Source: Mobula hypostoma (Eukaryota). Taken from it: a stretch of DNA of 64,000 nt. The notes under the pieces were generated by a model. That model was given only the letters and a program-made list of their open reading frames with translations. It was not told the origin of the DNA and searched no databases. A program made the translations under genes and the position numbers. Positions 31,097 to 56,246 of the stretch are shown here, one piece after another. Position 1 is the first letter of the stretch, and each line of letters starts with the position of its first letter. The stretch covers positions 49,912,001-49,976,000 of the forward strand of contig NC_086097.1 in the NCBI RefSeq assembly GCF_963921235.1, in the 5' to 3' direction.

Positions 31097-33810
31097 TAGA
31101 CCATAAGACAAAGGAGCAGAAGTAGGCCATTCGGCCCATCGAGTCTGCTCTGCCATTTTATCATGAGCTGATCCATTTTATCCTATTTAGTCCCACTGCC
31201 CCGCCTTCTCACCATAACCTTTGATGCCCTGGCTACTCAGATACCTATCAATCTCTGCCTTAAATACACCCAATGACTTGGCCTCCACTGCTGCCCGTGG
31301 CAACAAATTCCATAGATTCACCACCCTCTGACTAAAAAATTTTTTTCGTATTTCTGTTCTGAAAGGGTGCCCTTCAATCCTGAAGTCATGCCCTCTCGTA
31401 CTAGACTCCCCCATCATGGGAAACAACTTTGCCACATCCACTCTGTCCATGCCTTTTAACATTCGAAATGTTTCTATGAGGTCTCCCCTCATTCTTCTAA
31501 ACTCCAGGAATACAGTCCAAGAGTGGACAAACGTTCCTCATATGTTAACCCTCTCATTCCCAGAATCATTCTAGTGAATCTTCTCTGTATCCTCTCCAAC
31601 GTCAGCACATCCTTTCTTAAATAAGGAGACCAAAACTGCCCACAGTACTCCAAGTGAGGTCTCGCCAGCGCCTTATAGAGCCTCAACATCACATCCCTGC
31701 TCCTATACTCTATTCCTCTAGAAATGAATGCCAACATTGCATTCGCCTTCTTCACTACCGACTCAACCTGGAGGTTAACTTTAAGGGAATCCTGTACGAG
31801 GACTCCCAAGTCCCATTGCATCTCAGAACTTTGAATTCTTTCCCCATTTAAATAATAGTCTGCCCGTTTATTTTTTCTGCCAAAGTGCATAACCATACAC
31901 TTTCCAACATTGTACTTCATTTGCCACTTCTCTGCCCATTCTTCCAATCTATCCAAGTTTCTCTGCAGACTCTCCGTTTCCTCAGCACTACCGGCCCCTC
32001 CAGCTATCTTCGTATCGTCAGCAAACTTAGCCACAAAGCCATCTATTCCATAATCCAAATCGTTGATGTACAATGTAAAAAGAAGCGGCCCCAACACTGA
32101 TCCCTGTGGAACACCACTGGTAACCGGCAGCCAACCAGAATAGGATCCCTTTATTCCCACTCTCTGTTTCCTGCCAATCAGCCAACGCTCTATCCATGTA
32201 TGTAACTTTCCTGTAATTCCATGGGCTCATATCTTGTTAAGCAGCCTCATGTGTGGCACCTTGTCAAACGCCTTCTGAAAATCCAAATATACAACATCCA
32301 CTGCATCTCCCTTGTCTAGCCTACTGGTAATTTCCTCAAAAAATTGTAATAGGTTTGTCAGGCAGGATTTTCCTTTAAGGAATCCATGATGAGTTCTGCC
32401 TATCTTGTCATATGCCTCCAGGTACTCTGTATCCTCATCCTTGACAATCGACTCCAATAACTTCCCAACCACCGATATCAAGGTAACAGGTCTATAATTT
32501 CCTTTTTGCTTCCTTGCCCCCTTCTTAAATAGCGGGGTGACATTTGCAATCTTCCAGTCCTCCGGAACCATGCCAGAATCTATCGACTTTTGAAAGATCA
32601 TCGCTAATGCCTCCGCAATCTCCACAGCTACTTCCTTTAGAACACGAGGGTGCATTCCATCTGGTCCAGGAGATTTATTGACCTTTAGCCTATTCAGCTT
32701 CCTGAGTACTTTCTCTGTCGTAATTGTGACTGCGCACACTTCTCTTCTCTGCCACCCTTGAGTGTCCGGTATACTGCTGTCTTCCTCAATGAAGACTGAT
32801 GCAAAATACTTGTTCAGTTCCTCTGCCATCTCCTCATCTCCCAGAATTTCTCCAGTATCATTTTCTATCGGTCCTATATCTACTCTCACCTGTCTTTTAC
32901 TCTTTATATACTTGAAAAAGCTTTTAGTATCCTCTTGGATGTTATTTGCTAGTTTCCTTTCATAGTTAATCTTTTCTCTCTTAATGACCTTCTTAGTTTC
33001 CTTTTGTAAGGTTTTAAAGACTTCCTCTGTCTTCCCACTAATTTTTGCTTCCTTGTATGCTCTCTCCTTAGCTTTAACTTTGGCTTTGACTTCCCTTGTC
33101 AACCACGGTTGCATCCTTTTTCCACTCGAAAATTTCTTCTTTTTTGGAATATACCTGTCTTGCACATTCCTCATTTCTCGCATAAACTCCAGCCACTGCT
33201 GCTCTGCCGTCTTTCCTGCCAGTGTCTCTTCCCAGTCAACTTTGGCCAGTTCCTCTCTCATGCCACTGTAGTTTCCTTTACTCCACTGAAACACCGACAC
33301 ATCAGATTTCGGCTTCTCTTTTTCTAATTTCACAGTGAACTCAATCATGTTATGATCACTGCTTCCTAAGGGTTCCTTCACCTCAATCTCTCCAATCACC
33401 TCCAGTTCATTACACAATACCCAATCCAGTACAGCCGATCCCCTAGAGGGCTCAACAACAAGCTGTTCTAAAAAGCCATCTCGCGGACATTCTACAAATT
33501 CTCTCTCTTGAGATCCAGTGCCGACCTGATTTTTCCAATCTACTCGCATGTTAAAATCCCCCACAATTATCATAACACTGCCCTTCTGACAAGCCTTTTC
33601 TATTTCCAGTTGTAATTTGTAGTCCACATCCCTGCAGCTGTTTGGAGGCCTATAAATAACTGTCATCAGGGTCCTTTTACCCCTGCTATTCCTTAGCTCA
33701 CCCCATAAAGATTCTGCACCTTCCGATCCTATATCACCTCCTTCTAATGATTTAATATCATTTCTTACCAATAAAGCCACGCCTCCCCCTCTGCCTACCT
33801 TCCTATCCTT
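31097..33810 (-). mobile_element. Relatively young 5'-truncated CR1 LINE (APE endonuclease C-part plus RT)
   Basis: Long ORFs 32227-33780, 31489-32160 and 31187-31492 with IYRPP, GDFN, SDHN, YLDFQKAFDKV, GVPQGSVLGPLLF, KFADDTK; two frameshifts; intact 3' tail. Confidence 0.96.
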
Positions 33811-33966
33811 ATATATCCTTCCTTCCTATATATAAACACATATTGTAATGAAGTTTCCACACCAACTATCACCTTACTATATTTTGTACCTTCAAAACAT
33901 TAAACTAATTCAAAGGAAGTCCAAAATGTGATCAAACCTCAGGTTTACTTAAAGCGAGGCACGTGC

Positions 33967-35603
33967 AGCATCCCTGTTGCACCTGATGACCCTGTGATCT
34001 CTGTCTCAGAGGCCACTGTTAGGCTGTCTTTAAAGAGAGTGTACCCTTGCTAAGCAGAAGGTCCTGATGGAGTACCCGGTAAGGCTCTGAACACCTGCGC
34101 TAACCAACTAGCAGGAGTATTCAAGGACATTTTCAACCTCTCACTACTGTGGGCGGAAGTTCCCACTTGCTTCAAAAAGGTAACAATTATACCAGTGCCT
34201 AAGAAGAATAATGTGGGCTGCCTTAACGACTATCGCCCGGTAGCACTCACATCGACAGTGATGAAATGCCTTGAGAGGTTGGTCATGACTAGACTGAACT
34301 CCTGCCTCAGCAAGGACCTGGACCCATTGCAATTTGCCTATCGTTACAATAGGTCAATGGCAGACCAAATCTCAATGGCTCTTCACACGGCTTTAGACCA
34401 CCTGGACAACACAAACACCTACGTCAGGATGCTGTTCATCAACTATAGCTCAACATTTAATACCATCATTAACACAATCCTGATTGAGAAGTTGCAGAAC
34501 CTGGGCCTCTGTACCTCTCTCTGCAATTGGATTCTCGACTTCCTAACCAGAAGACCACAATCTGTGCGATTGGTGATAACATATCCTCTTCGCTGACTAT
34601 CAACAGTGGTGCGCCTCAGGGGTGTGTGCTTAGCTCACTGCTCTACTCTTTGTATACACACGACTGTATGGCTAGGCATAGCTGAAATGCCGTCTATAAA
34701 TTTGCTGATGATACAACCATTGTTGGTAGAATCTCAGGCGGTGACGAGAGGGCGTACAGGAGTGAGATGTGCCAACAAGTGGAATGGTGTCGCAGCAACA
34801 ACCTGGCACTCAACGTCAGTAAGACAAAAGAGCTGATTGTGGACTTCTGGAAGGGTAAGACGAAGGAACACGTACCAATCCTCATGGAGGGATCAGAAGT
34901 GGAGAGAGTGAGCAGCTTCAAGTTCCTGGGTGTCAAGATCTCTGAGGATCTAACCTCGTCCCAACATATCGATGTAGCTATAAAGAAGGCAAGACAGCGG
35001 CTATACTTTATTAGGAGTTTGAAACGATTTGGCATGTCAACAAATATACTCAAAAACTTTTATAGTTGTACCATGGAGAGCATTCTGACAGGCTGCATCA
35101 CTGTCTGGTATGGAGGGTCTACTGCACAGGACCGAAAGAAGCTGCAGAAGGTTGTAAATCTAGTCAGCTCCATCTTGGGAACTAGCCTGCAAAGTACCCA
35201 GGACATCTTCAGGGAGCGGTGTCTCAGAAAGGCAGTGCCCTTTATTAAGGGCCTCCAGCACCCAGGCATGCCCTTTTCTCGCTGTTACAATCAGGTAGGA
35301 GATACAGAAGGTTCTTCCCCTCTGCCAGCTAATTCCTGAATGGACATTGAATCTTTGGACACGACCTCACTTTTTAAAAAAATATACAGTATCTCTCTTT
35401 TTGCACATTTTTAAAAATCTATTCAATGCATGTAATTGTTTTACTTGTCTATTTATTATTATAATTATTGTTTTTATTTTATTTATCATTATTGTTATTA
35501 TTTTTCTCTGTTATTTTATGTATTACATTGAACTGCTGCTGCTAAGTTTATAAATTTCGCATCATATGCTGCTGATAATAAACTGGCATACGATTCTGAT
35601 TCT
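33967..35603 (+). mobile_element. Rex1/Babar LINE RT fragment nested in the LTR
   Basis: [58 protein letters not shown]; ends in a (GATTCT)n tail. Confidence 0.9.
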
Positions 35604-35726
35604 AATACATATCACATGGTAGCATGAGGACGCATGCAATTCACGTATTTAAACATATAACATGTAATTAATTATTCAAAGCAACAAGAATGTTTAATCA
35701 ACTATATACATACGAGATTACTCAAA

Positions 35727-35899
35727 CCCCCTCCTGTCGTCTCCTATCACTTCGGATCTCCCCCTCCCCCCTCACTTTCAAATCTCTTACTAGCTCTTCT
35801 TTCAGTTAGTCCTGACGAAGGGTCTCGACCCGAAACGTCGACTGTACCTCTTGCTAGAGATGCTGCCTGGCCTGCTGCGTTCACCAGCAACTTTGATGA
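35727..35899 (+). mobile_element. Penelope-type 3' end insert with 12 bp flanking duplication
   Basis: AGATTACTCAAA at 35715-35726 and 35900-35911; pyrimidine-rich segment, hammerhead-like core and family palindrome, collinear with the 3' end of the Penelope element at 61.7-61.9 kb. Confidence 0.8.
35808..35843 (+). ncRNA. Minimal type I hammerhead ribozyme motif (Penelope-associated)
   Basis: AGUC-CUGACGA-A-GGGUC(UC)GACCC-GAAA-C-GUC-GACU: stem I AGUC/GACU, intact core, stem II hairpin, palindromic ACGU in place of stem III. Confidence 0.7.
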
Positions 35900-36279
35900 A
35901 GATTACTCAAATATTACTGAAATACTAAATATACAACACTCCTCCCTGCTTAGCTATAAACTCCAATTCAATAGAGAATGCATTTCTCATAAAACACAGT
36001 ATTTTATATAGTACACCTAATATACAGTATACAGACATCCGCAGTATAGAGAATTTTAAATTGTCCCATTCAGGCCTGAAGCTTTAATCATTCTGAAGCC
36101 TTTCTTATTCTTGTGGGATAACATCTTTCCTGACCAGGGGAGTCACTCTGCCTGGCTGGTGAGAATTTTGGCTGTGAAATAATCTCAGGTTCTGGGGCCT
36201 CCTCCGTGGTGTTTGTAAGACTTGACTTAGAGATCACAGTAAATGATTCTGATAGTGGTAGCCACCTTTCTTCTCCTAA

Positions 36280-36802
36280 TTTGTGCATCTTGATCTTGGA
36301 AAAGTGCTTTTAGTTCACGGAAGTATTCTCTTAATCTCTCTGTTGCTCCTATTATCATCTGATCGCTCCTCCTGGTTTCCTCATCCACAGCGTTATGTGG
36401 CAAATCTTTTTTCATATCTCCGCTGACTCCTTTCTTTCTGGTTGTCCATTCATCCAGCTGGGCTTTGGACGTTGCATTTGCTTTTACAAACAGCTCTTTG
36501 TCTCCCACTTGAAGTTCATGCAATAACCTTAATGCATGTAGAGTAGATTCTGGTTCTCGCAAAAGCTAAATGCTTGCAACTTTCCTGAAGCTCCTTGAAC
36601 TCTCTTACAGCTTAAAACCAAGCCACATTTTGCAAGTAACTGTCTGATTAACATATCAAAAGCTTTCTCAGATGCATTGCTTACAAAAACTGTTGTAGTC
36701 AGACCACTGCTTTCATCACTTTCACACTTCCTCTGAGCAACATGGGTCCTTCCTTGGTCCCATATGCCTCCCGACCAGAGGCACAGAGGTTGTCACCAAC
36801 GC
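36280..36802 (-). pseudogene. RBM25: Processed RBM25 fragment (RRM region) inside the LTR element
   Basis: Translates as LVGRHMGPRKD / DESSGLTTTVFVSNASEKAFDMLIRQLLAKCGLVLSCKRVQGASGKLQAFSFCE / EPESTLHALRLLHELQVGDKELFVK...KAQLDEW...DEETRRSDQMI, matching RBM25 TTTVFVGNISEKASDMLIRQLLAKCGLVLSWKRVQGASGKLQAFGFCEYKEPESTLRALRLL; no introns; frameshifts. Confidence 0.92.
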
Positions 36803-36973
36803 CTGTTTGTCATCCTTTGGGCAACGGTTCATGGTGTTCGGCATGAGACTGTTGTGGCATCATCCAGTAACTTTCTTAATTTGCTTTCAGTTGGCTTTGT
36901 TGCAGAGAATGTGGCATGCAAACTGCGGATGGATCTCCAATCAAGTTGCAGATGTCTCAGCCAATCACGCACC

Positions 36974-37888
36974 CACTGTGAGCTCTCAGATTACCACAGT
37001 TTTCAGACTGCTGGATCACAAGACCAAGTCTGGTCTGAGAGTTGTAGTAGCTATCTCGGGGGGGAAATATTAGCCTTTTGTCAAGGCCGACAGCCATGTT
37101 CCAGTCACGAGCAGGCTGACAACAACCATGTCACTGAGGGTGGCTCTGTCTGTCCTTGCCGGACCAAGGGGATGGTGGTTCTTCCAGTCATATGGGGCTT
37201 AGAGTTGTTATTCAGCCTTTGCTTCTCCACAATGGATGCCAAACATCTGATGACCTGGTTTTGCCTCCATGTGTATCTTCTTTGAGTGAGGCTTATTTTG
37301 CAAGATGAGAGGATGTGCTTGAAGTTTGCTGTTCTTCCACAGAGTGGACAAGCTGGGTCTTCACCGAGCTTCAGTTTATTGGTTCAGATTTTTGGGCATT
37401 GGGAGAACATCATAAACAGCTCTTATAAGGAAGCTAATCTTTCTTCCTTCCTTTTCCCATAAGTCTTTCCAGCTGAATTTTCTTTTCTCAATGTTTTCTC
37501 ACCTTGTCCACTGTCCCCCTTTTGCCCGAGACACTACTCTAGCACTCCTCATCTGCTCCTCCTGTCGCCATACTTCCTCCCCCACCATAGCTTGCCTTTG
37601 CTTCTGTTTTGTCGCCTTTTGCCAAATGGGCCTATTTGAGCTTGTGCCAAGGCCTCATCTTCCACATTGCACTGGCCCACTATGCCTGCAAACCAGAGTT
37701 CTGCCTTTTCCTGATTTACTGACTCTGCTGGAAGTCACTTTCTACCTGGTTAAGGTCCTGGGTGCAGTATCCTGGACAACTCTGTCACAAGATTCCAAGA
37801 GAGTCATCTTAAACCTCACCTTGGCACATTTGAACTCTTCAGTCAGCCCTGTGACAGGCCACTCCAGAGTTCCTTTGCCACACAGGTA
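36974..37888 (-). mobile_element. Internal fragment of a HERO-type (restriction-like endonuclease) non-LTR retrotransposon
   Basis: Translates as LCGKGTLEWPVTGLTEEFKCAKVR, RKFSWKDL, ISFLIRAVYDVLP, EDPACPLC...KHILSSC...YTWRQNQV (zinc knuckle), TTLRPDLVL*S...ELTV (RLE PD..E motif); stops and frameshifts. Confidence 0.82.
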
Positions 37889-38776
37889 GATCCAATCATC
37901 TGTTGTGTAATCAAATGTGACAATTTTTCTGACTTAGCCAGCCATTTCTACTTTTTATGATTATTATCACATGTTACTCACTTTTTATGAACCTGCAAAT
38001 TCTTCTATTTTCTGACTTTTTAAAAACTTGATTGTGTCTTCCCTTCCAAAGAACATGTGCTGCTCTCCTTTTGTAAAACTTGACTGTCTCTGCATGTGCT
38101 GTGCTGCAATTTTTTTCACTCACCGTTCCTCAACACATTTTTTCAGTTCGGACGTTTTTGCTACACTTCAACAGGTCAATAGCCGTCTCGGGTTTGCTTC
38201 ATCCTTTCTATTTCTCCCTCCTCAAAACAACCAGGCTTCGCAATTCTTCTCATCTGCCTCTAAACTTGCCACAATCTCCTCCACCCCTGTGTGGACCTTT
38301 ACAGCCATTTATGGGGGGCCTACTGATTAAAACTTTCAGCCGCCTGCCAGGCTTATTAAATTGCTGAACAATGTTCTTTTAAATTGCAGCATTAAATTCA
38401 AAATTTAATGGCTCCTATTTGAGTGCTGTCCGGACTCAGCTGTGACTCGCCCTTATAATCAACCAGTAATACGCAAGGATATTCTACACTCATTTCCATC
38501 CTAATAAAGCTGAATTTTCTGAGTTCTCCTGAACTTAATCAATATAAGTTTCTGTGTCAATATTCAGAATGAAAATTGACTGTAGGCTTGCCATGCACTC
38601 AGCTTGAACTTTCAAGGAAGTCTAATGCACAAAACCACTCCACTCACTGCCTTCAAAATGGTGTTACTTTTGCTATTTAATGCTCTTGAATTTATTGAAG
38701 TTTGTATTTATTAATCCATGCACTAAACAGGAACAAAATTACATTCAGTTGTCCTCTTTCTCTGGCCCTCTGACTG

Positions 38777-44800: not shown

Positions 44801-45227
44801 ATTAGCACACAATAAAAATACTGGCTATTGTGAAGTGTTTAATCTGATCTGTTCTAAAAATCTCACATTTAATCGAGTCTTCCAGGTACCAGTAAAGTAG
44901 GTGTGCTTTTAATTGGCAGCAGCACCATATTTTAGAATGATAATTCCAATACAGCTGAGGAACTCAAGTTTGTAAATATATTCCTTGAAATGATATTTAT
45001 GACCTGGTATCTGCCGTCTACCAGGTCATAAATATCATTTGAAAGAATGTATTTACAAACTTGAGTTCCTCAGCTGTATTGGAATTATCATTCTAAAATA
45101 TGGTGCTGCTGTTAATTAAAAGCACGCCTATTTTACTGGTACCTGGAAGACTCAATTAAATGTAAGATTTTTAGAACAGACCAGATTAAACATTTCACAA
45201 TAACCAGTATTTTTATTGTGTGCTAAT
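44801..45227. repeat. Long inverted repeat, ~209 bp arms with 9 nt spacer
   Basis: 44801-45009 is the reverse complement of 45019-45227 with roughly a dozen mismatches, mostly transitions. Confidence 0.97.
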
Positions 45228-56057: not shown

Positions 56058-56246
56058 AGTTTCAGTTGAAATTCATTTTGATCCAGTGGACTTTTTCTAT
56101 GAAGTATTTAGCAGGGTATGAGGATATTCAACTGGTCGTTTTCCAACTGTATGCTTAGTTGAAAACGACCAGTCGAACATCCTCATATCCTGCTAAAGAC
56201 TTCATAGGAAAAGTCCACTGGATCAAAATGAATTTCAATTGAAACT
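56058..56246. repeat. Inverted repeat, ~90 bp arms with 8 nt loop
   Basis: 56058-56148 is complementary to 56157-56246 with a few mismatches and a 1 nt indel. Confidence 0.95.

What the first reader, a model, noticed from the sequence alone, without database searches (positions are those of the whole stretch)
36974..37945. Second cargo: HERO-type LINE fragment fused in frame to the gag start of the same LTR element
Seen: from ATG 37945 the frame reads MAG*VRKIVTFDYTTDDWIY|LCGKGTLEWPVTGLTEEFKCAKVR.., so a gag-like N-terminus runs in frame into an RLE-LINE segment. That segment includes the CPLC..H....C zinc knuckle and stops mid-endonuclease at RPDLVL..ELTV, where Gypsy sequence resumes. It lacks the LINE 3' end, which target-primed insertion would retain, and it replaces most of gag and protease. 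Inference: acquired by RNA-level template switching or recombination, giving a three-way chimera (LTR shell, RLE-LINE, host mRNA).
Basis: partly seen in the sequence, partly recalled or inferred. Interest (0 to 1): 0.75.

Follow-up and report, generated by a model that had tools for sequence, protein, structure and literature searches.

The report
LINE scrap inside dead LTR copy
A 918-base piece of one jumping gene (a HERO-like LINE) sits where about 1 kb of another, long-dead jumping gene used to be, at one place in the genome only, and it likely got there by an ordinary later insertion followed by a deletion rather than by being captured as cargo, so it is ordinary genome decay.

Summary
The anatomy is real. 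37945-37892 is the gag start of a Gypsy-type non-autonomous LTR family that also carries RBM25 sequence (the scan noted that family before, e1-7911170). 37891-36974 is an internal piece of a 3.5-kb HERO-like RLE LINE lacking its last ~510 bases, standing where sibling copies have 1.0-1.07 kb of gag-protease. It is not a propagated cargo: each junction occurs once in the genome, and 0 of 50 shell loci carry this LINE. The fusion is dead: stop at codon 4, 11 stops, the knuckle in another frame, 3' junction out of frame. The LINE piece looks younger (K2P branch 0.065) than the shell (0.107) and as old as a LINE nested later in the same copy's LTR (0.060), though sub-regions overlap. The copy also lost its 5' LTR; 3 of 19 siblings show similar foreign-DNA-plus-deletion scars. 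Microhomology is short (0-4 and 3 nt). Best reading: 5'-truncated LINE insertion, then a ~1.5-kb deletion (0.62); one-step break-repair capture 0.22; template switch 0.14. Ordinary; interest 0.12.

The parts
37946..38200 (-). 5' leader remnant of the non-autonomous Gypsy-type element; 5' LTR and primer site absent
   Evidence: multi-copy match ends at ~38200; no LTR match upstream in the window; the same join is in organism B
37892..37945 (-). gag start, 18 codons, stop at codon 4
   Evidence: aligns to residues 1-19 of gag-pol P0132
36974..37891 (-). 918-bp internal fragment of a HERO-like RLE LINE: post-RT linker, CCHC knuckle, first part of the endonuclease; 5' truncated and lacking the last ~510 bases
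37300..37350 (-). CCHC zinc knuckle C-X2-C-X7-H-X4-C, in a different frame from the ATG
   Evidence: spacing as given in PMC5678591
36847..36973 (-). end of the protease region of gag-pol (residues 377-419), out of frame with the LINE piece
   Evidence: siblings
36236..36844 (-). RBM25-derived cargo shared by the whole family (the 'first cargo')
35939..35950 (-). polypurine tract before the 3' LTR
   Evidence: sequence, siblings
33875..35938 (-). 3' LTR (~250 bp, TG start) in three pieces: 35938-35899, 35726-35604, ~33965-33875
35727..35898 (.).
33966..35603 (+). RT-encoding LINE inserted later into the 3' LTR (Rex1-like, name recalled); used as the age control

Best explanation
The segment is a single-copy piece of a HERO-like LINE that likely inserted by normal target-primed reverse transcription, 5'-truncated, just inside gag of an already dead LTR copy, and a later deletion of about 1.5 kb likely removed the LINE's last ~510 bases together with ~1.0-1.07 kb of gag-protease. 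Shown: identities, boundaries, single-copy junctions, dead reading frame, loss of the 5' LTR. Inferred: the order (shell older than LINE piece) from branch lengths, and that insertion and deletion were two events; the 3-base overlap at the 3' junction would be the microhomology at which the deletion was joined. Nothing suggests a function.
For: Junctions unique: only the window spans each junction among 40 scored of 1376 and 1238 candidates; junction patterns with up to 3 mismatches give only the window plus one unrelated GT-rich repeat; 0 of 50 shell loci hold this LINE and 0 of 45 LINE loci hold the shell. Age: terminal branch (K2P, non-CpG, pairwise, 200 bootstraps) LINE piece 0.065 (0.051-0.086, 19 copies), shell 0.107 (0.082-0.128, 15 copies), LINE nested in the 3' LTR 0.060 (0.046-0.076, 14 copies); shell <= LINE in 0 of 200 bootstraps; trees give 0.067, 0.124, 0.072; half the LTR-LTR distance of 11 siblings is 0.135. 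5' truncation near this point is usual: 7 of 19 copies start within 600 bases of it. Decay background among 19 siblings: 9 internal insertions, 5 internal deletions of 100 bp or more, 3 with foreign DNA where native DNA is missing, 5 without a 5' LTR nearby. 4 of 20 LINE copies picked by their 5' part have no 3' end within 2.3-2.9 kb. No filler bases at either junction.
Against: No intermediate state was seen: organism B has both junctions already. Dating is noisy: transversions alone give 0.025 vs 0.037, shell <= LINE in 12.5% of bootstraps; the 350 bp of shell next to the junction gives 0.076 +- 0.016; thirds overlap (LINE 0.091/0.064/0.054, shell 0.086/0.107/0.145) and family ranges touch (0.058-0.086 vs 0.077-0.114). 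Same orientation and the near match of inserted (918) and lost (1.0-1.07 kb) lengths are left to chance. Two events are needed instead of one.
Confidence: 0.62

Rival explanations
1. One-step capture: a double-strand break with loss of ~1 kb in the dead LTR copy was patched with an internal piece of LINE RNA, cDNA or DNA (like the non-classical, endonuclease-independent L1 insertions of Sen et al. 2007).
For: 3'-truncated LINE, no tail, target deletion and short overlaps at both ends match the description in PMC1920257 (18 of 21 loci with target deletions); fits the younger age and single copy equally well.
Against: 15 of 21 such human loci carry filler DNA; none here. Such events are rare in that study, whereas deletions after insertion are common in sibling copies here.
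Confidence: 0.22
2. Template switching in the virus-like particle: reverse transcriptase jumped from the LTR RNA to a co-packaged LINE RNA and back, making a three-way chimera that integrated once and was not copied further.
For: Same sense as the LTR RNA, internal coding sequence replaced, LINE 3' end absent, overlaps of 0-4 and 3 bases (chance of a sum of 4 or more 0.088, of 5 or more 0.037); the family evidently took up RBM25 sequence once; the mechanism is documented in animals (PMC5131818).
Against: It predicts equal age of shell and LINE piece, but the piece looks younger; no close donor of the shell exists among the best 40 of 6679 candidates (best 80%); overlaps are shorter than the 6-bp median in Tan et al.; never re-amplified; both LTRs expected, only one present (though later loss is common).
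Confidence: 0.14
3. Assembly chimera or chance juxtaposition.
For: Region is repeat-dense.
Against: Contigs from independent runs bridge both junctions: X5 37758-38046 with 1 difference, X1 36930-37140 with 0, X6 36868-37031 with 3.
Confidence: 0.02

Closest known systems
Nested LINE insertion with later deletion inside a decayed LTR retrotransposon (general TE decay; recalled knowledge, shown here in siblings L065, L067, L069)
   Same: Foreign repeat DNA standing where native internal DNA is missing, single copy, younger than the host element
   Different: Here the foreign piece happens to be in sense and in frame with the gag start, and close in length to what was lost
Non-classical (endonuclease-independent) L1 insertions, Sen et al. 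2007, PMC1920257 (passages and section 11 read)
   Same: 3'-truncated LINE piece, no tail, loss of target DNA
   Different: RLE-type LINE rather than L1; no filler DNA; the pre-insertion state could not be checked in a relative, which is how that study excluded later deletion
LTR-mediated retroposition chimeras, Tan et al. 2016, PMC5131818 (passages read)
   Same: Internal ORF of an LTR element replaced by another sequence in sense, short overlaps at the fusion points
   Different: Overlaps shorter than the 6-bp median, only one LTR, insert younger than shell, no further copies; the RBM25 cargo of the same family fits that model far better
HERO clade RLE LINEs (HERO-1_BF, HEROTn; alignment in supplement of PMC7650587, part 12 of 19 read)
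   Same: RT motifs of the parent family match these two by eye; single long frame with RT, CCHC knuckle and RLE; dispersed, no fixed target seen
   Different: No tree was computed; the family here is unnamed and all copies seen are broken

Membership tests
RLE-type LINE | Non-LTR reverse transcriptase upstream of the fragment in the parent family | tested here: met
   RVT_1 hits E 5e-6 and 6e-5 in copies L118, L119, just under the Pfam cut-off; long copies align over ~3.5 kb
RLE-type LINE | CX2-3CX7-8HX4C knuckle followed by a PD-type restriction-like endonuclease | tested here: met
   C-X2-C-X7-H-X4-C at 37350-37300 and RPDLVL..ELTV; definition from PMC5678591. No Pfam or PDB sequence hit for this part
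RLE-type LINE | Copies share a 3' end and vary in 5' truncation | tested here: met
HERO clade | RT domain groups with HERO in a phylogeny | tested here: inconclusive
   No reference sequences usable in the tools, so no tree. By eye the motifs LLNVEGKIFFS and PPIRAFMDDLT of L116-L118 equal HEROTn and are close to HERO-1_BF, and are absent from the Utopia, R5/LIN9 and R4 rows seen; R2 and CRE rows were not in the part read
Ty3/Gypsy-type non-autonomous LTR element | TG..CA LTRs, primer site, polypurine tract, gag-pol-derived interior | tested here: met
   Family: LTR pairs in 11 siblings; gag-protease 57-65% identical to gag-pol proteins with RT, RNase H, integrase. This copy: 3' LTR and tract only. 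'Gypsy' rests on the K02A2.6-like name and recall
LTR-mediated (template-switch) chimera | Internal ORF replaced rather than interrupted | tested here: met
   gag-pol residues ~20-376 missing
LTR-mediated (template-switch) chimera | Microsimilarity at both fusion points beyond chance | tested here: inconclusive
   5': first base shared in 8 of 15 siblings, two in 4, four in 1; 3': three bases in 13 of 14; chance 0.04-0.19 for sums of 5 to 3
LTR-mediated (template-switch) chimera | Both LTRs present; insert and shell of the same age | tested here: not met
   5' LTR absent; branch lengths 0.065 vs 0.107, with the noise stated
LTR-mediated (template-switch) chimera | Further copies with the same junctions (optional) | tested here: not met
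Non-classical LINE insertion | Pre-insertion site in a relative shows that the 3' flank never held the LINE 3' end | not testable with these tools
   Organism B has both junctions; organism C shows no cover of the unique flank at 90%

The most novel reading that the evidence does not exclude
An LTR element that had already captured host RBM25 sequence co-packaged a HERO LINE RNA and switched templates twice, fusing gag in frame to the LINE's knuckle-endonuclease region: a fossil of recombination between LTR and non-LTR retroelements inside one particle in a cartilaginous-fish-like genome.
Probability: 0.14. Interest if true: 0.35.

Novelty: new member of a known kind. Interest (0 to 1): 0.12.

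Why it matters
As most likely read it matters little: one more nested-insertion scar in a dead repeat, useful only as a warning that 'replaced ORF plus missing LINE 3' end' does not by itself show RNA-level capture. If the template-switch reading were right, it would be a dated example of the exchange between LTR and non-LTR elements that modular TE evolution needs, but a dead single copy would allow little further work. The noteworthy thing at this locus is the RBM25-carrying family, already noted by the scan.

Tried and rejected
Self-comparison of the window found no LTR pair; sibling LTRs found only the 3' LTR. The first impression that 37891-36974 is a free-standing element with fixed ends was rejected: the other copies run on in both directions. 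Pfam gave nothing for the window's LINE and gag pieces and only a weak DUF7083 hit for sibling gag; PDB sequence search of the LINE C-terminal frame gave only chance hits; homologue names never said HERO. A PWI search for the RBM25 parent gene gave three places, none matching RBM25 P0018, so splicing of that cargo and its junction overlaps were not tested here. Runs of organisms C, D, E (small shares) showed repeat-derived contigs and next to no cover of the unique flank 38223-38727 at 90%: no evidence either way. The 3-mismatch hit L125 is a GT-rich tandem repeat. A 24-base pattern with 3 mismatches would find a given sibling only 26-62% of the time, so a very small family of chimeras is not excluded. 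Paper searches (listings only) showed no report of this family or of LINE capture by it; this covers only the open library.

Full report
What is there. A genome search with 36974-37945 returned 40 scored places (of 287 candidates); apart from the window itself they match from query base 49 or later, most from base 55, that is window 37891. The 19 fetched copies run on beyond both ends of the window's piece, share a 3' end about 510 bases further on and differ in 5' length. The four longest fetched span 3.0-3.5 kb and show RT, knuckle and endonuclease motifs. So 37891-36974 is an internal piece of a dispersed RLE LINE. The knuckle fits the spacing given in PMC5678591 (passages). By eye its RT motifs match HEROTn and HERO-1_BF in the supplementary alignment of PMC7650587 and not the Utopia, R5/LIN9 or R4 rows (part 12 of 19); no tree was run, so I write HERO-like. 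PMC4640811 (passages) says many HERO elements have no fixed target, as here.

The flanks. Both flanks are multi-copy. Twenty 10-kb loci show a family of about 2.85 kb: 250-bp TG..CA LTRs, leader, gag-protease, RBM25 sequence, polypurine tract. Sibling gag is 57-65% identical to gag-pol proteins with RT, RNase H and integrase; the cargo is 86% identical to shark RBM25. The window keeps gag-pol residues 1-19 and 377-419; six siblings with an undisturbed middle have 1.0-1.07 kb there. The window's copy has its 3' LTR split by a 172-bp repeat and a 1.6-kb LINE, and no 5' LTR within the 25.8 kb upstream.

The fusion is not a gene. There is a stop at codon 4 (by eye in none of 15 siblings), 11 stops in 324 codons and 5 indels private to the LINE piece. 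The knuckle is in another frame, and the 3' junction does not keep the frame. An in-frame 5' join has a one-in-three chance.

Copy number. With 240-base queries centred on each junction only the window spans it, 1 of 40 scored from 1376 and 1238 candidates. Junction patterns with up to 3 mismatches find the window and one unrelated repeat; their power per sibling is 26-62%. None of 50 shell loci holds the LINE and none of 45 LINE loci holds the shell (some loci overlap). In run X5 (organism B) the contig across the 5' junction has depth 50, the unique flank 43; the 3' junction is bridged in X1 and X6, with no unique-flank depth for those runs. The chimera is real, older than the A-B split, and single or nearly so.

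Junctions. At the 5' join the first LINE base is shared with 8 of 15 siblings, two bases with 4, four with 1; at the 3' join three bases are shared with 13 of 14; no filler. Random switch points give 3 or more at one join in 6.2%, a sum of 4 or more in 8.8%, 5 or more in 3.7%. Tan et al. report a 6-bp median for template switches (PMC5131818, passages); about half of zebrafish L2 5' junctions have microhomology after normal insertion (PMC2666801, passages). The overlaps do not separate the models.

Age. Terminal branches from pairwise distances: LINE piece 0.065 (95% 0.051-0.086), shell 0.107 (0.082-0.128), the LINE that certainly came later into the 3' LTR 0.060 (0.046-0.076); shell no longer than LINE piece in 0 of 200 bootstraps; half LTR-LTR distance in 11 siblings 0.135; 5' leader 0.101 +- 0.016; trees agree. 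Against: transversions alone are not decisive (12.5% of bootstraps), the 350 bases of shell beside the junction give 0.076, thirds and family ranges overlap, and all copies used are best hits. I take this as moderate evidence that the LINE piece arrived after the LTR copy had integrated. A late re-mobilisation from a decayed donor would leave a close relative; the best shell hit is 80%.

Background. Against one natural copy (L052), 9 of 19 siblings have internal insertions and 5 internal deletions of 100 bp or more, 3 have foreign DNA where native DNA is missing, 5 lack a 5' LTR nearby (sizes from BLAST breaks); those three foreign stretches are 70-99% other repeats. Of 20 LINE copies picked by their 5' part, 14 reach the 3' end, 4 do not within 2.3-2.9 kb, 2 are unresolved; 7 of the first 19 start within 600 bases of the window's 5' join. 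Each ingredient of insertion-then-deletion is thus common here.

Mechanism. Most likely (0.62) normal 5'-truncated insertion into a dead copy, then a deletion of about 1.5 kb joined at a 3-base overlap. A one-step repair capture like the non-classical L1 insertions (PMC1920257, passages and section 11) fits age and shape as well but is rarer and usually leaves filler (0.22). Template switching in the particle (0.14) has the orientation and the replaced ORF in its favour, the ages, single copy and short overlaps against. Artefact is excluded by bridging contigs (0.02). Only orthologous loci in further relatives can decide; organism B already has the finished form and organism C gave no cover.

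Novelty. An ordinary nested-repeat scar; even the template-switch reading is a known mechanism. Searches of the open library (listings) showed no paper on this family. Interest 0.12.

Noticed in passing
window 36236-36844 and loci L037-L070: RBM25 sequence is fixed in a high-copy non-autonomous LTR family of about 2.85 kb (6679 candidates); sibling L052 is 86% identical to a shark RBM25 over 77 aa. Splicing not tested here; noted earlier as e1-7911170.
   Followed up: partly
window 36974-37891 versus L052, L054, L055, L056, L061, L063: Inserted length (918) is within about 15% of the lost length (1.0-1.07 kb); none of the three mechanisms predicts this.
   Followed up: no
L011, G000:C2:95687488-95688416: Another LINE copy is 5'-truncated within one base of the window's junction but has a different flank and keeps its 3' end; possibly chance, possibly a preferred stop point.
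   Followed up: no
L002-L020 3' ends: The LINE family ends without a poly(A) or repeat tail, mostly into A/T-rich flanks.
   Followed up: no
L088 and L096 (C2:219.0 Mb and C2:218.7 Mb): Two LINE copies share the same internal 126-base gap, likely a local duplication.
   Followed up: no
window 44801-45227 and 56058-56246: Long near-perfect inverted repeats with short spacers (209 and 86 bases); the first overlaps a LINE-like 3' end and may be a twin-priming or fold-back structure.
   Followed up: no
   Followed up: no
window 31100-33870: A CR1-like LINE (name recalled) on the - strand begins right after the 3' LTR end.
   Followed up: no
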